Positions 43,865-48,789 of a DNA stretch of 64,000 nucleotides are shown piece after piece. The position numbers and the translations under genes are program-made. Every line of letters begins with the position of its first letter. The first letter of the stretch is position 1. The notes beneath the pieces were generated by a model. That model did no database searches. It was not told the origin of the DNA and saw nothing but the letters and a program-made list of their open reading frames with translations. The DNA is from an uncultured Candidatus Binatia bacterium (GTDB taxonomy: Bacteria; Desulfobacterota; Binatia; UBA9968; JAJDTQ01), in contig OZ244617.1 of the NCBI GenBank assembly GCA_965218305.1, positions 715,776 through 779,775 on the forward strand. The letters are read 5' to 3'.

Positions 43865-44896
43865 ATGGAAGTCCCCAGCATCGTACCGGGCCACATCGTC
43901 GACATGCACGCCCACATCTATCCCGAGGGCTGCTTCGAAGAGGTCCTTAAGGCCCGGCCGGAGTTCGCCATGGCTCGCTCGGAACGCGGCCTGTCGCTCA
44001 CCTGCCGAGGCAGCCACACCATGTCCGCGCCCGTCGACGCCGACCTGAGCGCCCGCCTGCGGACCATGGACGAGGCCGGGGTCAAGGTCCAGGTACTGTC
44101 CGTCGGTGCCCTCAACACGGGTTGGGCGGGCACCGCCACCGCCCGGCTCGTCAACGACGGCTTGGCCGAGGTGTGCCGCCAGTACCCGGACCGCTTCCGT
44201 TTCGTCGCCGCGCTGCCGTGGGACAGCACCGCCGCACTCATGGACGAGCTGGACCGGGCCATGGGTCTGGGCGCCGTGGGGGCCGGCATCACCACCACCG
44301 TAGCCGATCACACCCTCGACGCTCCCGAGCTCCGGGAGTTCTGGCGCCAGGCCCACCGGCGCAAACTCCTGGTGCTCGTGCACCCGACGTTCCCCCTCGA
44401 CGGGCCGGCGAACGATCGGGGCGAGTACCTCGCCGTCGGCTACCTCGGCGAGACCGCCATGGCCGCTACCAAGCTCACCCTGGGCGGTGTGCTCGAAGAA
44501 TGCCCCGACGTCCGCATCGTTTGGTCCCACTGCGGCGGCAGCCTGTGCATGGTGCTGGACCGCATCGACCGCGGCTACCGCCGCTACGAGAAGTGTCTGC
44601 GCCCCCCGAGCGAGTACCTGCGCCAATGCTACTACGACACCGTCACCCTGTCCGGCCCCGCCCTCGACTGCGCCCGCGCCACCTTCGGCGCCGACCGGCT
44701 CGTCTACGGCACCGACGAGCCCCATGTGCCCAACGCCAGCAAGGGCGTGTTGGCCGCGCTGCGCGCCCGGTCGTGGCCGGAAGCGGAGTTGGAGGGGGTG
44801 CTCGGCGGCATCGCGCGAGATCTGCTGGAGCAAGCCCCAGACGGACCTCAGGTTGAACCGGCGAAGCCAGTCGAGACGAGGCATAGGCCCAAATAG
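43865..44896 (+). CDS. Amidohydrolase-2 family protein (ACMSD-like metal-dependent hydrolase/decarboxylase).
   Basis: MEVPSIVPGHIVDMHAHIYPEG...VHP...HCGG...GTDEPH metal-binding pattern. GGAGGAGACGGAC-ATG. Confidence 0.8.
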   Translation: MEVPSIVPGHIVDMHAHIYPEGCFEEVLKARPEFAMARSERGLSLTCRGSHTMSAPVDADLSARLRTMDEAGVKVQVLSVGALNTGWAGTATARLVNDGLAEVCRQYPDRFRFVAALPWDSTAALMDELDRAMGLGAVGAGITTTVADHTLDAPELREFWRQAHRRKLLVLVHPTFPLDGPANDRGEYLAVGYLGETAMAATKLTLGGVLEECPDVRIVWSHCGGSLCMVLDRIDRGYRRYEKCLRPPSEYLRQCYYDTVTLSGPALDCARATFGADRLVYGTDEPHVPNASKGVLAALRARSWPEAELEGVLGGIARDLLEQAPDGPQVEPAKPVETRHRPK

Positions 44897-44956
44897 TGTG
44901 TCGGCAAATCTTGATCTAACACGAATTCCAACTACAATTGTGAGTTTGGGCGTCGT

Positions 44957-45215
44957 CATGGCAAACGGTATCTGTCAAAACAAGGCTAGGTTTCGCGCTC
45001 CCTTGGAGAGTGAGACAGATGAGGTTCCCGCCATCGACACGGGTCTCAACACCCGTGACGGCGAGTCACGAACCAAGTTTATCGGTGACCAGGATTGGAA
45101 TCATCTTCGAAACGTGCCATCTTTTGGCCGGCTGCTGCTGTCTGCGCCACTTGAGGATGGGGACTTGGCGCCGCGCCTCATGAGCCCAACACGTGACAAC
45201 GTGTTCGACGCTTGA
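44957..45215 (+). CDS. Possible small ORF (86 aa) at the islet edge.
   Basis: ATG at 44957. No clear Shine-Dalgarno. No family recognised. It may be non-coding. Confidence 0.2.
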
Positions 45216-45262
45216 GTTATGAGAGCGTGCCTATTTCCAGTACAAACTGACGGGCAGGTATT

Positions 45263-45682
45263 TTGAAGCGGCCGCAGAAGCGCAGTAAGCCGAAAAGGAA
45301 GATCGTGCTGGTTGCGGTGGGCTCAATCAGTCGGCGTGAGTTGGAAAGGATGGCGCAAGAAGCGCAGTATCGTTCCAGCGACTATCACAAGTCGGGCCCG
45401 ACGGCGGTTCCTCGTCCGGACAAGACGGTATGCGATTTGCCTACGTCACACAATGCGATAAATGCGACGGATTTACTGAGGGCGGGGTTTTGTCGAGGCA
45501 TGGTAAGCGAACAGGAACGCGGTGGTTGGCCACAGAACGTGTGGGCGGTCGATGCTGACGGGATTGTATACGAGGCCCAACTCACTAACTCGGGACTTGG
45601 GGAATATCACGGATATCCGATGACAAAGACCGACAGCTTCGCTGCCTTTGTCAGCAAAGAGTGGGAGAACCGCGGGACATGA
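45263..45682 (+). CDS. Hypothetical small protein (111-139 aa) with a conserved-looking ...VWAVDADGIVYEAQLTNSGLGEYHGYPM... motif. Possible toxin or effector component.
   Basis: ORF upstream of the ImmA-like gene with an ATGA overlap. The start is uncertain. Candidates are TTG at 45263, GTG at 45305 and ATG at 45350. Lysine-rich N-terminus if the longest form is used. Low GC. Confidence 0.5.
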   Translation: MKRPQKRSKPKRKIVLVAVGSISRRELERMAQEAQYRSSDYHKSGPTAVPRPDKTVCDLPTSHNAINATDLLRAGFCRGMVSEQERGGWPQNVWAVDADGIVYEAQLTNSGLGEYHGYPMTKTDSFAAFVSKEWENRGT

Positions 45683-46995
45683 CCCTCAATATCGGAACCA
45701 ACTGGTGCCGTGACCTCGATGGGGAATTTCCCGGAAGTCTGGAACCCGTGGAGGACGAGGCGACCCTCAGTGAGATCGTTATCGAGGCCGCGGAGGATAC
45801 CCTTACTCAAGCATTCGATCTTGAGAAGGGAAGTGTTCGCGATGGTGTTAATCTTTCAGCCTACCGATTGGCCGAATGGCTGATCTGGAACTGGTGGCGT
45901 CTTCGCTGGGAACCCGCACACCAGAACGCTCAACGTGATCGGAGCCTGGAGTGGCGACAGGCGCACGAGATGGCAGGTATCGGTCGCGGGTGGTTGTGGC
46001 CAAACATTGTGATAATGTCCGACGGTCTTCGAATCGAGTTGGACGTGAGACCGACATCGGAGACTCGTACAGAGCGCCTGCGCTATATGACGGACAAGAG
46101 AACGGTGGTTTCCGCCGAAGCTTTCGAGGCCGGGGTCGACGCCTTGGTAGGACGCGTCCTGGAAAGGCTGGGCCGTAGTCCGGTTCCTGATTCCGACCTT
46201 GTCATCGCATGGAGGGAGCTTGCCGCCGAGCGAAATGACGCCGAACTGACCATGTACCGAATGATTGAGGCGTGCCGGGGCTTCGATGTGGACGAAGCTG
46301 ATCCAGAGCAGATTGAGCAGATTATTGCGGATGGCGACGAGTTGGGAACCAGCGCGATTTCGGAAGTGGCGGCGGATCAGTTTCTCACCGCGGAGGAATT
46401 GCACGTGGTAGCAACGCAGTCAGGTTTTGATACTGATCCTGGCAGTGGGGCAGACCCGCTGAACGGCTCATGGAATGGGCTCGGAAACATTGCTCCCTGG
46501 CGGGTCGGCGCGGATGCGGCAGGGAGTCTCCGGTCTCGAGAGAAGTTGGGCGATGACCGGGTGTCTGATGTACGATTGGCCGAGTTGTGCGGGATTGACG
46601 ACCGTGCCTTGGGTGAATTGGGTATCGGTGGCCCGATGGCGTTTACGCTCCATGCAAAAGACGGTCCTCGAAGTCACGTCGTTTTGCGCTCGAAATGGCG
46701 AACTGGGCGGCGCTTCGAGTTGGCGCGCTTGCTCGCCGACCACCTTCTCGTAGACAACGAAGAGAGTCTCCGGCCCGCGACTCGTGCGTCCACATACAGA
46801 CAAAAAATGCAGCGCGCATTTGCGGCCGAGCTTCTTTGTCCTGTTGCGAGTCTGGTTGATTTCCTAAATGACGATTTCTCGGATGAGGCACGGGAAGAAG
46901 CAGCGGAGCGATTCGACGTATCCCCGTTCGCGGTTACGGCGGTGCTCGTAAACAACGGCAGACTCGACCGTGATGAAGTCCGCCCCATGATCTGA
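45679..46995 (+). CDS. Multidomain protein: about 260-aa N-terminal domain of unknown function (Trp-rich), an HTH-like segment, and a C-terminal ImmA/IrrE (COG2856/DUF955)-like domain with a degenerate HExxH.
   Basis: The C-terminus RRFELARLLADHLLVDNEESLRPATRASTYRQKMQRAFAAELLCPVASLV aligns to the ImmA motifs HELGHxLLH ... E.ANxFAAELLMP. The zinc histidines are replaced (F...R...H). ...VRLAELCGIDDRALGEL resembles a helix-turn-helix. The N-terminus contains LIWNWWRLRWEP. Confidence 0.6.
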   Translation: MTLNIGTNWCRDLDGEFPGSLEPVEDEATLSEIVIEAAEDTLTQAFDLEKGSVRDGVNLSAYRLAEWLIWNWWRLRWEPAHQNAQRDRSLEWRQAHEMAGIGRGWLWPNIVIMSDGLRIELDVRPTSETRTERLRYMTDKRTVVSAEAFEAGVDALVGRVLERLGRSPVPDSDLVIAWRELAAERNDAELTMYRMIEACRGFDVDEADPEQIEQIIADGDELGTSAISEVAADQFLTAEELHVVATQSGFDTDPGSGADPLNGSWNGLGNIAPWRVGADAAGSLRSREKLGDDRVSDVRLAELCGIDDRALGELGIGGPMAFTLHAKDGPRSHVVLRSKWRTGRRFELARLLADHLLVDNEESLRPATRASTYRQKMQRAFAAELLCPVASLVDFLNDDFSDEAREEAAERFDVSPFAVTAVLVNNGRLDRDEVRPMI

Positions 46996-47047
46996 CCAAG
47001 TCAAAGAGATACTGCCCGGCTGTCGGCTCTGCACCCATCCGTTAGCG

Positions 47048-47098
47048 GGCGACCTGCCACTCGCTGTCAATCGGAGAAATAGTCTTGGCAGGTCGCCT
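47048..47098. terminator. Perfect 12-bp inverted repeat (GGCGACCTGCCA...TGGCAGGTCGCC) between the convergent islet genes. Putative bidirectional terminator or hairpin.
   Basis: Stem at 47048-47059 and 47087-47098 with a 27-nt loop. No strong T-tract. Confidence 0.35.
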
Positions 47099-47620
47099 CT
47101 ACGAACTGGTTGTATCTTCCCTTCCAAGCAGTTTCGGGAATCTCTCACAAACCTCCGCGACGACCTCGTGCCCGTTTTTCGCCTCATCCTGTGCAATTCT
47201 GATCGTTCCTGTGAAGTTACCGCATTTGTCAGTATGCAGATGAGCTTTTTCGTGCACGAGTTCTTTCCTTGCCTCACGCAGTTGCTCGATTTTTTTCAAC
47301 AACCTCATGTCGCTGCAGCCTAGCAGCCGTAGTTTTTTCTCATACGACATTCTATCAACCTCTTCGTAACGCTCCCGACCGTGCGTCTCTACGATCAGGA
47401 GATGCAGCGCGGCCTCAAGCCAGATGCAGCTGAAGACAACCGAGATTAGCGCGTCCTTGAACGAAGTTTGGTTCGGATCGAATGATTTGACGTGTCCGCT
47501 GTCGACGGATTCGGGACCGCTGCGTAGGTCCCTATCGTCTGTCATCCTCATAAAGGCTGTATCCGCAATCGACCTGAAGACATGGATGTTCGTGAACACG
47601 TACCGTTGTTTTGAACTCAT
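47099..47620 (-). CDS. Hypothetical protein with an Rx4H HEPN-like motif (putative HEPN-domain RNase).
   Basis: 173 aa. ...LLKKIEQLREARKELVHEKAHLH... contains R-KELV-H. Lowest GC of the window (about 47%). GGAAGGA Shine-Dalgarno before the ATG. Confidence 0.5.
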   Translation of the reverse strand: MSSKQRYVFTNIHVFRSIADTAFMRMTDDRDLRSGPESVDSGHVKSFDPNQTSFKDALISVVFSCIWLEAALHLLIVETHGRERYEEVDRMSYEKKLRLLGCSDMRLLKKIEQLREARKELVHEKAHLHTDKCGNFTGTIRIAQDEAKNGHEVVAEVCERFPKLLGREDTTSS

Positions 47621-47736
47621 GTCGTCCTTCCAGCGAGTTCGGTCTGTTTCGGCGGATTTCTGGAGACAGTTCTAACGATGTCGGAGGGCGCGGGCTCAGG
47701 TGGAAGAGCGAACATAACCTTCAGCGTTAGTTTGGG

Positions 47737-48789
47737 CTAGATCCCGTACAGCGCCCTGGCGTTGTCGTCCACGATCTTGCGGCGGGCCTCCGCGCCGACC
47801 GCATCGTTTTCCTGCAGAACCTTCAGCGCTTCGAGCTGGCTGGACGTATCGGCGTGGCCGTAGTCGGAGCCGATGACGATATGGTCCTCGCCGGCGTACT
47901 GGAGGATGTAGGGCAGGTCCTCTTCAGTCTGGCAGGCGACGTAGAAGCGGTTGCGGCGCAGCACGTTCGCCTTTTCATCCAGCTGCCGGGTGCCTGTCCG
48001 GTGGAGACGGGCGCCGAGGTCGGTGATGAGGTAGGGGACCCAGGAGGCCGCGGCTTCGAGAAAGCCCCAGCGGAGGTCGGGGAAGCGGTCCGGGACGCGG
48101 CTTAGAACGAGCGAGTGGAAGGCGGTGATGATGGGCACCTTGGCCATCCACAGGGCAGTGGCGCGGGAGTGAAAGAGGCCGCTCAGCGCGTGGTTCACCA
48201 GTCCCGAGTGAATGCATGCCGCCATGTCCAGCCGGCTGGCTTCGGCGTAGACCGGGAAGTAGTCCTCGTCGATGGGTATGCGCTCGCCCAGGAGGCCCTG
48301 CAGCAGGAAGCCGCAGGCGCCGTTTTCACGGCTGAAGCGAAGCTCCTCCAGGGCCACGTTCATGGTCAGCAACGGCAGCGTCGCCACCCAGCGCAGGCGC
48401 CCTTGGCTCCGGCGCCAGATGTCGGCCATCCAGCGGTTGTAGGCGCGGCACATGGCGATCTGGGTCCGGGGGCGGCTCAGGGTGGCGAGACCCAGAAGGG
48501 TGGTGGGGTAGAGCACCTGGATGTCGGTGCCGAGCTCGTCCATGTGGCGCAGCCGCGCCGCCACGTCCCGCAGCTCGGAAGACTCCGGAGTCGTGCCGGA
48601 GCTGGCGGGCGGGAAGGCCCGTTTGGGCTCCAGGTTGCTGTCGAACAGCCAGAAGTCGTTCCTGCGGAGCGGGTCCGACTGATCCGCGGCCTCCAGGATG
48701 CGGGGCTTGTGGCGCCGGTCCTCGCCTTCCATGTACTCCCAAGTCTCTTCGCATTCGATGACGTGGCAGTCCGCGTCGATGACGGCCAT
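47737..48789 (-). CDS. Amidohydrolase-2 family protein, likely 2-amino-3-carboxymuconate-6-semialdehyde decarboxylase-like.
   Basis: MAVIDADCHVIE...IHSG...HSL...SDYGH metal-ligand pattern. Immediately downstream of a 3-hydroxyanthranilate dioxygenase gene. Confidence 0.7.
   Translation of the reverse strand: MAVIDADCHVIECEETWEYMEGEDRRHKPRILEAADQSDPLRRNDFWLFDSNLEPKRAFPPASSGTTPESSELRDVAARLRHMDELGTDIQVLYPTTLLGLATLSRPRTQIAMCRAYNRWMADIWRRSQGRLRWVATLPLLTMNVALEELRFSRENGACGFLLQGLLGERIPIDEDYFPVYAEASRLDMAACIHSGLVNHALSGLFHSRATALWMAKVPIITAFHSLVLSRVPDRFPDLRWGFLEAAASWVPYLITDLGARLHRTGTRQLDEKANVLRRNRFYVACQTEEDLPYILQYAGEDHIVIGSDYGHADTSSQLEALKVLQENDAVGAEARRKIVDDNARALYGI

What the first reader, a model, noticed from the sequence alone, without database searches (positions are those of the whole stretch)
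47099..47620. Convergent low-GC ORF with an Rx4H (HEPN-type) motif, a putative RNase effector.
REARKELVHEKAHLH contains R-x4-H in a helical, charged context near the C-terminus of a 173-aa protein. HEPN RNases are frequent toxin or abortive-infection effectors, and this would fit a defense reading of the islet. The ORF has a good GGAAGGA Shine-Dalgarno and the lowest GC in the window.
Basis: inference. Interest (0 to 1): 0.55.

Follow-up and report, generated by a model that had tools for sequence, protein, structure and literature searches.

The report
Stand-alone HEPN-like putative RNase gene
This is a real 173-residue gene from an unannotated, widely scattered family whose most conserved feature is the arginine/histidine motif of HEPN RNA-cutting enzymes; it always travels alone rather than with its neighbours, so it is most likely a new but fairly ordinary family of single-gene RNase toxin or defence proteins.

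Summary
The ORF at 47099-47620 (-), its GGAAGGA ribosome-binding site, its RKELVH (R118-x4-H123) motif and its status as the lowest-GC stretch of the window are all confirmed. The motif alone means little, because 51% of shuffles of this protein contain an Rx4H.

What matters is the family. It has 281 clusters at 50% identity, and none carries a Pfam, NCBIfam, PADLOC or PHROGs assignment. In 306 aligned homologues R118, H123 and E124 are each kept in 304, as R-[KNR]-x-[LI]-V-H-E-K-A. An acidic residue at position 69 is kept in 99%.

Two AlphaFold models (pLDDT 82 and 94) place the motif at the end of the third core helix, with the acidic residue in helix 2 and a helical insert between helices 2 and 3. 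That is the published HEPN layout. In Foldseek searches of the PDB, nearly all hits with probability of 0.6 or more are HEPN proteins (HepT toxins and others). However, E-values are 0.13-0.4, TM-scores are 0.46-0.60, and a profile comparison with DUF86 was negative.

No neighbour is conserved across 27 loci, so the adjacent 139-aa and 444-aa genes are not partners.

Best reading: a new stand-alone HEPN-like RNase family, horizontally mobile and possibly defensive. RNase activity and toxicity are untested.

The parts
47099..47620 (-). Coding sequence of the 173-aa protein, a member of an unannotated family of single-domain proteins of about 150-180 aa (candidate stand-alone HEPN-like RNase)
   Evidence: - ORF listing.
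- 69 homologues at E<=0.01.
- 281 representatives at 50% identity with E<=1e-3.
- AF2 models with pLDDT 82 and 94.
47243..47269 (-). Codons for R118-K-E-L-V-H123-E124-K125-A126, the family's signature R-x4-H-E-K-A motif (putative catalytic Arg/His)
   Evidence: - R118, H123 and E124 are each kept in 304 of 306 aligned sequences; K125 in 94% and A126 in 91%.
- R118 is the only invariant column among 96 diverse members.
- The motif lies at the end of helix 105-122 and the start of the following loop.
47411..47422 (-). Codons for W67-L-E69-A70 in the long second helix. E69 is the conserved acidic residue expected in HEPN helix 2.
   Evidence: - Position 69 is E in 281 and D in 41 of 325 sequences; A70 is kept in 90%.
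- It lies within helix 52-80.
- A conserved acidic residue in helix 2 is the published HEPN feature.
47625..47631 (-). Shine-Dalgarno-like GGAAGGA, 5 nt upstream of the ATG
   Evidence: Read directly from the sequence.
47048..47097 (.). Perfect 12-bp inverted repeat (GGCGACCTGCCA, 26 nt, TGGCAGGTCGCC) between the stops of the two convergent genes. It is a possible shared terminator hairpin, although no U-tract follows it.
   Evidence: - Inverted repeat I9.
- The RNA fold has -36.1 kcal/mol and a z-score of -3.4 against shuffles.

Best explanation
The ORF encodes a member of a previously unannotated family of small stand-alone proteins that adopt a HEPN-like helical bundle.

**Proposed structure and chemistry**
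- Helices 12-32 and 52-80 form the first hairpin.
- Two short helices (82-99) form the insert that is typical of HEPN domains.
- Helices 105-122 and 143-160 form the second hairpin.
- The invariant R118 and H123 sit at the end of the third core helix, next to the conserved acidic E69 of helix 2.
- By analogy with characterised HEPN enzymes, two protomers would pair their Rx4H motifs to form a metal-independent endoribonuclease site.

**Proposed biology**
- The gene has no conserved partner, so the protein must control itself, presumably as an inactive oligomer that a stress or phage signal switches on, as in the solo HEPN protein HepS. Once active it would cut tRNA, rRNA or mRNA and stop growth.
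- The gene moves horizontally as a single-gene cassette.

**What is shown and what is inferred**
- Shown: the family exists; the motif and the acidic residue are conserved; the predicted helix layout; HEPN proteins are the best structural matches; the gene is solo; its composition is foreign to its hosts.
- Inferred: membership of the HEPN superfamily, RNase chemistry, dimerisation, autoinhibition with a trigger, and a defence or toxin role.
For: **Motif and conserved residues**
- R118, H123 and E124 are each kept in 304 of 306 homologues. R118 is the only invariant column among 96 members that share 24-48% identity with the query.
- The residue after R is K, N or R, so it is polar.
- Position 69 in helix 2 is acidic in 99% of sequences.

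**Predicted structure**
- Two AF2 models were made, one of the window protein (pLDDT 82, pTM 0.76) and one of a relative about 31% identical (pLDDT 93.7, pTM 0.87). Both give the same helix order, with the motif at the end of the penultimate long helix.

**Structural matches**
For the second model 13 of 13 are, in the list shown.
- These include SO_3166 HepT (5yep, 6m6w, 7bxo; probability 0.89-0.95), the Aphanizomenon HEPN toxin (7ae6, 7ae2), TT1696 (1ufb), AF0298 (2hsb) and the Sulfolobus HEPN protein (2q00). YutE (1ylm), HI0074 (1jog), 4nqf and 1wwp appear lower in the lists.

**Weak sequence hints**
- Sub-threshold Pfam hits of individual members fall on DUF3644 (3 members), DUF4145 (3) and HEPN_RiboL-PSP (2). 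DUF3644 and DUF4145 are named as HEPN families in PMC3710099; RiboL-PSP-HEPN is a HEPN family by its Pfam name.

**Solo, mobile gene**
- No neighbour is conserved among 27 loci, for ORFs >=70 aa within 4 kb or ORFs >=30 aa within 700 bp.
- Gene GC is below flank GC in 27 of 27 loci.
- The hosts are scattered: Binatia, Chloroflexi, Nitrospira, Alpha- and Gammaproteobacteria, Smithella, Scalindua and a Hodarchaeota archaeon.

**Neighbourhoods**
- An ICE with TraG, AlpA, TacAT and a large DEAD-helicase protein.
- A Mu-like prophage next to HigBA and terminase.
- VapBC plus a resolvase.
- HipA and PemK.
- Mrr immediately upstream in Nitrospira.
- Dnd/Pbe, type IV and type IIG restriction, and MADS-like hits among the neighbours.

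**Precedent**
- HepS is a functional single-gene HEPN abortive-infection protein (PMC13043305).
Against: - No match to HEPN is statistically significant. Foldseek E-values are 0.13-0.4, and TM-scores are 0.46-0.47 normalised by query and 0.52-0.60 by target.
- hhalign of the family profile against a DUF86/HepT alignment gives a probability of 0.2%, and it does not align the motifs.
- Family consensus sequences hit no HEPN model in Pfam even at E<=10.
- The +4 partner of the acidic residue is H or Y, not the K or R of the common Ex3[KR] motif.
- The residue after R is mostly K or R rather than N, D or H.
- There is no antitoxin or other regulator to explain how a constitutive RNase would be tolerated.
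- Many loci sit among housekeeping genes such as recA, prfA/B-like genes, pgi and transporters.
- The family is absent from 50,697 phage records and from IMG/VR at the patterns used. It appears on one plasmid only, as a frameshifted copy.
- No experiment supports RNase activity.
Confidence: 0.55

Rival explanations
1. The protein has a HEPN-like fold with an active Rx4H site, but its role is not defence or toxicity. It could be a housekeeping or stress-related RNA-processing or decay enzyme, or a nucleotide- or RNA-binding regulator, that happens to be horizontally mobile.
For: - No antitoxin or partner is conserved.
- Many loci lie among housekeeping genes.
- The family is absent from phage and viral collections.
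- In the window the gene lies on the same strand directly downstream of a catabolic operon, with no sigma-70-like promoter found in the 116-bp spacer.
- Stand-alone HEPN-T proteins of unknown role exist.
Against: - The distribution is patchy across distant phyla, and GC is foreign in 27 of 27 loci. This is not what a housekeeping gene shows.
- The gene recurs next to TA modules, an ICE, a prophage, Mrr and other restriction genes.
- dN/dS is about 1 against the closest orthologue, with conserved positions spared. This resembles conflict genes more than housekeeping genes.
Confidence: 0.2
2. The protein is not a HEPN domain. It is an unrelated helical-bundle protein, for example a ligand- or metal-binding or protein-binding module, whose conserved R...HEK and E/D residues serve binding rather than RNA cleavage.
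For: - All HEPN similarities are below significance.
- Helical bundles match one another easily. Hemerythrin, NiSOD, a di-iron protein and CheA P1 also appear among the weaker Foldseek hits.
- E69-x3-H73, H123-E124 and E146 could in principle be metal ligands.
Against: - H73 is H in only 60% of members and is Y, W or F in most of the rest, so it cannot be a universal metal ligand.
- The non-HEPN bundle hits have Foldseek probabilities of 0.06-0.57 and poorer TM-scores, while every hit at 0.6 or above is a HEPN protein, in two independent models.
- The position of the motif and of the acidic residue matches the HEPN description point by point.
Confidence: 0.2
3. The ORF is the toxin or effector of a three-gene system with the adjacent overlapping 139-aa and 444-aa genes. 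This is the first reader's defence-islet reading, with the IrrE-like 444-aa protein as its regulator or antitoxin.
For: - All three genes share the low-GC islet, with GC3 of 0.61-0.64 against 0.81-0.89 in the flanks.
- All three are retained together in the closest relative, L005.
- The C-terminus of the 444-aa protein gives a sub-threshold Peptidase_M78/IrrE match (E 0.0015). That domain is often found in regulators of toxin modules.
Against: - L005 is simply syntenic, with 93.6% nucleotide identity over 5.7 kb, so it is not independent evidence.
- None of the other 25 genomic loci contains a relative of either neighbour by tblastn.
- No neighbour family is shared among the loci.
- The ORF is convergent with the pair and separated from it by a strong hairpin.
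Confidence: 0.04
4. The ORF is a decaying pseudogene or a chance ORF in foreign DNA.
For: dN/dS is about 1.07 against the closest orthologue, from 4 synonymous and 15 non-synonymous changes.
Against: - The reading frame is intact and full length, with a good ribosome-binding site.
- All family-invariant residues are present.
- None of the 14 changed residues falls on the 37 positions conserved in at least 80% of the family (P about 0.03 under neutrality).
- Hundreds of homologues share the same length.
Confidence: 0.01

Closest known systems
HepT toxins of HEPN-MNT (type VII) toxin-antitoxin systems: DUF86/PF01934, for example Shewanella SO_3166 (PDB 5yep, 6m6w, 7bxo)
   Same: - These are the best structural matches of both AF2 models (probability 0.89-0.95, TM by target 0.52-0.60).
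- They are small single-domain proteins.
- The Rx4H motif lies at the end of the penultimate helix and is followed by a loop and a last helix: RNIAVH in SO_3166 and R[KNR]x[LI]VH here.
- A conserved acidic residue followed by Ala lies in the long helix 2: GEA in DUF86 and LEA here.
   Different: - There is no detectable sequence or profile similarity (hhalign 0.2%) and no PF01934 hit.
- No adjacent MNT nucleotidyltransferase or any other conserved partner is present.
- The Tyr two residues after the His (Y104 in SO_3166, the AMPylation site) is an invariant Lys here, in H-E-K.
- This family has an extra conserved N-terminal beta-hairpin or loop (RPKPDGxxG...DP) and a longer loop after the motif.
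HepS, the 'HEPN Solo' abortive-infection protein of the Gifsy-1 prophage (PMC13043305; PDB 9OIJ and 9OIK)
   Same: Both are single small HEPN-type proteins with a canonical Rx4H motif and no partner gene. HepS is the working precedent for how a solo HEPN RNase can be tolerated: an autoinhibited oligomer that is opened by a phage protein.
   Different: - HepS structures are not among the top 50 Foldseek hits of either model.
- No PDB chain is similar in sequence at E<=10 apart from spurious uL30 hits.
- This family is not prophage-borne as a rule. One prophage context was seen, and there were no hits in phage or IMG/VR collections.
- The trigger, the oligomeric state and the RNA target are unknown.
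Other HEPN families that often occur outside MNT pairs: DUF4145 (PF13643), EC042_2821/DUF3644 (PF12358) and RiboL-PSP-HEPN (PF18735)
   Same: - Individual members of this family give their only recurrent family-type weak hits to these models (E 0.008-0.09).
- DUF4145 and DUF3644 are linked to restriction-modification contexts. Mrr and other restriction genes recur next to this family.
   Different: - All of these hits are far below the gathering thresholds.
- The query protein and the family consensus do not hit these models at all.
- Those families are frequently fused to restriction-endonuclease, helicase or other domains, whereas this family is always a single domain.

Membership tests
HEPN superfamily (Anantharaman et al. 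2013, PMC3710099) | Conserved Rx4-6H motif | tested here: met
   R118 and H123 are each kept in 304 of 306 aligned homologues, always with a spacing of 4. R118 is invariant among 96 diverse members.
HEPN superfamily (Anantharaman et al. 2013, PMC3710099) | The residue after the conserved R is polar, typically N, D or H | tested here: inconclusive
   The residue is K in 128, N in 89 and R in 80 of 306 sequences. It is polar but mostly basic, and the typical N appears in only 29%.
HEPN superfamily (Anantharaman et al. 2013, PMC3710099) | The motif sits at the end of core helix 3 and the start of the loop to helix 4 | tested here: met
   In model 1, helix 105-122 carries R118 and H123 lies just beyond its end, followed by a loop and then helix 143-160. 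In model 2, helix 103-120 carries R116 and H121 lies just beyond its end, followed by helix 135-156. The criterion is quoted.
HEPN superfamily (Anantharaman et al. 2013, PMC3710099) | Conserved acidic residue in helix 2, often as Ex3[KR] | tested here: met
   Position 69 is E or D in 322 of 325 sequences and lies within helix 52-80.
HEPN superfamily (Anantharaman et al. 2013, PMC3710099) | Four-helix up-and-down bundle with an insert between helices 2 and 3, superposable on solved HEPN domains | tested here: inconclusive
HEPN superfamily (Anantharaman et al. 2013, PMC3710099) | Significant sequence or profile similarity to an established HEPN family | tested here: not met
   - There is no Pfam, NCBIfam, PADLOC or PHROGs hit.
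- Only sub-threshold hits of a few members fall on DUF3644, DUF4145 and RiboL-PSP.
- hhalign against DUF86 gives 0.2%.
- Only one HEPN family could be tested profile against profile.
HEPN superfamily (Anantharaman et al. 2013, PMC3710099) | Metal-independent endoribonuclease activity from a dimer that juxtaposes two Rx4H motifs | not testable with these tools
   This needs biochemistry or multimer modelling. Only single-chain prediction was available.
HepT-MntA type VII toxin-antitoxin (DUF86, PF01934) | Match to PF01934 | tested here: not met
   None of 142 member scans hits PF01934. hhalign gives 0.2%.
HepT-MntA type VII toxin-antitoxin (DUF86, PF01934) | Adjacent MNT nucleotidyltransferase antitoxin gene | tested here: not met
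   No neighbour is conserved in 27 loci. Nucleotidyltransferase families are not among the recurrent neighbour families. By contrast, real DUF86 genes fetched as controls overlap an upstream nucleotidyltransferase gene.
HepT-MntA type VII toxin-antitoxin (DUF86, PF01934) | Rx4HxY with the Tyr that MntA AMPylates | tested here: not met
   The H+2 residue is K in 94% of sequences (H-E-K-A). SO_3166 has RNIAVHDY.
HepS-like solo HEPN abortive-infection proteins (PMC13043305) | Single HEPN-domain protein without a partner gene | tested here: met
   All members are single-domain proteins of about 150-180 aa, and no neighbour is conserved.
HepS-like solo HEPN abortive-infection proteins (PMC13043305) | Homology to HepS | tested here: inconclusive
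   9OIJ and 9OIK are not among the top 50 Foldseek hits. No PDB chain gives a meaningful sequence hit. The HepS sequence itself could not be recovered from the Gifsy-1 record NC_010392, so no direct comparison was made.
HepS-like solo HEPN abortive-infection proteins (PMC13043305) | Prophage-encoded, activated by a phage structural protein, anticodon nuclease | not testable with these tools
   One of about 30 contexts examined is a prophage. There were no hits in the phage or IMG/VR collections. Trigger and target need experiments.

The most novel reading that the evidence does not exclude
The family is a new, phylum-spanning class of self-contained HEPN RNase sensors-effectors. In this reading the conserved N-terminal hairpin (RPKPDGxxG...DP-x3-SFK) acts as a built-in sensor or autoinhibitory element, replacing the antitoxin of HepT-MntA. 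A phage or stress cue would then release an Rx4H-E-K active site of distinct chemistry. This would extend the single-gene HEPN immunity seen in HepS from enterobacterial prophages to environmental bacteria and Asgard archaea.
Probability: 0.25. Interest if true: 0.55.

Novelty: new member of a known kind. Interest (0 to 1): 0.35.

Why it matters
If confirmed, this adds an unannotated family to the HEPN RNase superfamily. The family has about 280 clusters at 50% identity, is spread over at least eight bacterial phyla and occurs in an archaeon.

It would also be another example of a HEPN nuclease that works without an antitoxin or partner, a class for which only a few mechanisms, such as HepS, are known. 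Its extended invariant motif (R-x4-H-E-K-A) and conserved N-terminal hairpin give clear mutational targets.

The practical gain is modest. The family would be named in annotation pipelines and defence-island catalogues, which currently leave every member as a hypothetical protein.

Tried and rejected
- **Family libraries.** Pfam, NCBIfam, PADLOC and PHROGs scans of the ORF returned only noise such as ADIP, Ras and MazG-like at E>0.02.
- **PDB sequence searches.** Searches with the protein and with the family profile returned only a spurious charged-helix match to ribosomal protein uL30.
- **Family consensus sequences against Pfam at E<=10.** No HEPN model was hit.
- **hhalign of the family against a DUF86 alignment.** The DUF86 alignment was built from real plasmid and metagenome HepT sequences. 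The probability was 0.2% in local, global and low-mact modes. The best alignment, which is not significant, paired the DUF86 helix that follows the motif with this family's N-terminal 'TN..' helix. I do not read this as evidence of circular permutation.
- **Attempt to diversify the DUF86 alignment from IMG/VR.** Only 4 loci were found.
- **Toxin-antitoxin reading with the neighbours.** Rejected, because the neighbours are absent from all other loci.
- **Small conserved flanking ORFs (>=30 aa).** Only local Nitrospira repeats were found.
- **RNA elements in 44700-47900.** Rfam returned nothing at E<=1.
- **Phage or plasmid carriage.** No phage hit, no IMG/VR hit, and one frameshifted plasmid copy.
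- **Recovering HepS from Gifsy-1 (NC_010392) for a direct comparison.** No ORF with R100/H105 was found in that record.
- **Metal-binding bundle idea.** Weakened, because H73 is not conserved.

Full report
**1. Observation**

The minus-strand ORF at 47099-47620 (ATG start, 173 aa) exists as described.
- It contains REARKELVHEKAHLH. The Rx4H is R118-KELV-H123, encoded at 47252-47269.
- GGAAGGA (reverse complement of 47625-47631) lies 5 nt before the start codon.
- The ORF has GC 0.506 and is the lowest-GC 522-bp stretch of the whole window. Its GC3 is 0.61, against 0.81-0.89 in the flanking amidohydrolase and 3-HAO genes.
- The motif by itself is not informative. 51% of shuffles of this protein contain an Rx4H, and 88% contain an Rx4-6H.

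**2. The family**

The protein has no match in Pfam, NCBIfam, PADLOC or PHROGs. It does belong to a real family.
- There are 69 homologues at E<=0.01, 281 representatives at 50% identity with E<=1e-3 out of 1.84 billion, and several hundred more with a profile search.
- Nearly all are single-domain proteins of about 150-180 aa. The few that carry a name are called hypothetical, and none has a precomputed Pfam domain.
- In an alignment of 328 sequences the best conserved positions are R118, H123 and E124 (304/306 each), F63 (99%), A147 (99.7%), D48, N11 and K55 (97% each), Q144 (96%), K125 (94%), and an acidic residue at 69 (E or D, 99%).
- Among 96 members that share only 24-48% identity with the query, R118 is the single invariant column.

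**3. Fold**

AF2 with the family alignment gives an all-helical model (pLDDT 82, pTM 0.76). Its helices are 12-32, 52-80, 82-89, 93-99, 105-122 and 143-160. A second model, of a relative about 31% identical (P0319), is very confident (pLDDT 93.7, pTM 0.87). It has the same order plus a small beta-hairpin after helix 1.

Anantharaman et al. (PMC3710099, read) define the HEPN core as follows:
- two alpha-hairpins, with frequent inserts between helices 2 and 3;
- a conserved acidic residue in helix 2.

Every one of these points is matched here. The insert is 82-99. R118..H123 sits at the end of helix 105-122. E69 lies in helix 52-80.

Foldseek against the PDB gives no hit with E<=1e-3 for either model. 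However, in both searches every listed hit with probability of 0.6 or more is a HEPN protein.
- Model 1: 5yep_B 0.93, then 6m6w, 7bxo, 6m6u and 2q00.
- Model 2: 7bxo_F 0.95, then 7ae6, 1ufb, 5yep, 6m6w, 2hsb, 2q00 and 7ae2.
- TM-scores are 0.46-0.47 by query and 0.52-0.60 by target. About ten distinct HEPN proteins from at least three HEPN families appear in the top 50 of each list.

Weak Pfam hits of individual members fall on DUF3644, DUF4145 and HEPN_RiboL-PSP. DUF3644 and DUF4145 are HEPN families, and RiboL-PSP-HEPN is one by its Pfam name.

Against this, a profile-profile comparison with a DUF86/HepT alignment built here was flatly negative, at 0.2%. Consensus sequences also hit no HEPN model. 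I rate HEPN superfamily membership as likely, at roughly 0.7, but not proven.

**4. Context**

In the window the gene lies in a 2.7-kb low-GC islet between two amidohydrolase genes of a catabolic cluster. It is convergent with an overlapping gene pair of 139 aa (45263-45682) and 438/444 aa (45679/45661-46995), and a strong hairpin separates it from them.

That arrangement recurs only in L005, which is simply a syntenic close relative (93.6% nucleotide identity over 5.7 kb). Twenty-five further loci were found in species-representative genomes. They come from Binatia, Rhodobacterales, Chloroflexi, Nitrospira, Smithella, Desulfuromonadales, Scalindua, Alloalcanivorax, Methylotenera and others.
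- None of them carries either neighbour.
- They share no neighbour family of >=70 aa within 4 kb and no small ORF of >=30 aa within 700 bp.
- The gene's GC is lower than that of its flanks in all 27 loci, by 3-18 points.

Neighbourhoods are heterogeneous.
- Some are clearly mobile or conflict regions: an ICE with TraG/AlpA, TacAT and a 2052-aa DEAD-helicase protein; a Mu-like prophage between HigBA and terminase; VapBC plus a resolvase; HipA and PemK; Mrr directly upstream in Nitrospira; and Dnd/Pbe, type IV and IIG restriction, MADS-like and TnpB hits.
- Others are housekeeping, including a release factor, recA, pgi and a transporter.
- The family is absent from 50,697 phage records and from IMG/VR with the patterns used. 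It occurs on one plasmid, as a frameshifted copy with H123 changed to R.

**5. Selection**

Against the L005 orthologue the gene shows 4 synonymous and 15 non-synonymous changes, giving dN/dS of about 1.07 and dS of 0.036. Genes in the same syntenic block behave differently:

| Gene | dN/dS |
|---|---|
| 173-aa ORF | about 1.07 |
| Amidohydrolase | 0.06 |
| 3-HAO | 0.04 |
| 444-aa gene | 0.21 |
| 139-aa gene | 0.17 |

None of the 14 changed residues is one of the 37 positions conserved in at least 80% of the family (P about 0.03 under neutrality). This argues against decay. It is compatible with fast evolution of variable surfaces, or with a recent replacement of the gene. The numbers are small, and this point remains unexplained.

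**6. Mechanism proposed**

The most likely reading is a stand-alone HEPN-like endoribonuclease.
- R118 and H123 would be catalytic, assisted by E69 and perhaps by E124 and K125.
- The site would be formed across a homodimer, as in other HEPN enzymes (established knowledge: PMC3710099, and PMC13043305).
- Without a partner gene, control must be intrinsic. The working precedent is HepS, a solo HEPN protein held as a closed tetramer until a phage tail protein opens it.
- The conserved N-terminal hairpin region (RPKPDGxxG...DP...SFK) is a candidate for such a regulatory or sensor element. This is inference only.

**7. Comparison and membership**

- HepT of HEPN-MNT systems is the closest structure. 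Membership fails on three tested features: there is no PF01934 match, there is no MNT neighbour, and the AMPylated Tyr is replaced by Lys.
- HepS is the closest in logic, as a solo gene. No homology to it was detectable, and the family is not prophage-borne as a rule.
- The family is best filed as a candidate new family within the HEPN superfamily. That makes it a new member of a known kind.

**8. Verdict**

The HEPN-type motif and fold are likely, and the claim that this gene is the effector of the islet is not supported.
- Interest is moderate to low. The family is a useful annotation gap and a clean experimental target, but new HEPN families and solo HEPN toxins are already an established theme.

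Noticed in passing
window 45263-45682 (+) and 45679-46995 (+): Two unannotated genes overlap by ATGA (stop of the 139-aa ORF, start of MTLNIG...) and share the low-GC islet. The last ~107 residues of the 444-aa protein give a sub-threshold Peptidase_M78/IrrE match (E 0.0015, 18.8 bits against a cutoff of 22). In that region the HExxH site reads ARLLADH, so the domain is probably an inactive ImmA/IrrE-like module. The 139-aa protein (motif GEYHGYPM) matches nothing. The pair looks like an independent two-gene module of unknown function.
   Followed up: partly
window 44940-44951 and 47726-47737: Near-identical 12-nt direct repeats (GTGAGTTTGGGC and GTTAGTTTGGGC) sit at the two edges of the low-GC islet, just outside the flanking amidohydrolase genes. 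They could be an insertion scar or a chance match.
   Followed up: no
window 47099-47620 compared with L005 6001-6522: dN/dS is about 1.07 (4 synonymous, 15 non-synonymous changes). dS is about five times lower than in the neighbouring genes of the same syntenic block, and all changes avoid family-conserved positions. This could reflect diversifying selection or a recent gene replacement.
   Followed up: partly
L031 4953-5529 (Burkholderia ambifaria plasmid pBMC401, NC_010553.1 around 216 kb): This is the only plasmid copy of the family. It is frameshifted into two ORFs, and its motif reads RKDLVREKA (His to Arg). It lies in a long run of small hypothetical genes on a conjugative plasmid.
   Followed up: partly
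L015 and L017 (the same Nitrospira MAG, DALYJF01); L019 and L021: Two paralogues of the family occur in one Nitrospira genome. In two other Nitrospira loci a full Mrr (Mrr_N plus Mrr_cat) type IV restriction gene ends at the start of the family gene, on the same strand.
   Followed up: partly
L038 (Syntrophus sp. MAG, JARLUC010000003.1): A family member sits inside a Mu-like prophage. It lies between HNH and small early genes on one side and a Gp49/HigB-HTH pair followed by terminase and portal genes on the other. This is a typical accessory (moron) position.
   Followed up: no
L007 2092-3414: An IS605 OrfB/TnpB (Cas12f-like) gene lies 2.6 kb upstream of the family gene in a Rhodobacterales genome.
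   Followed up: no
L005 9582-12056: In the closest relative, the side of the islet that carries the 139-aa and 444-aa genes is followed by a truncated amidohydrolase, a DDE_Tnp_1 transposase and a HigB-like/HTH_3 pair. The window instead has a full-length amidohydrolase there, so the region has been rearranged by mobile elements.
   Followed up: no
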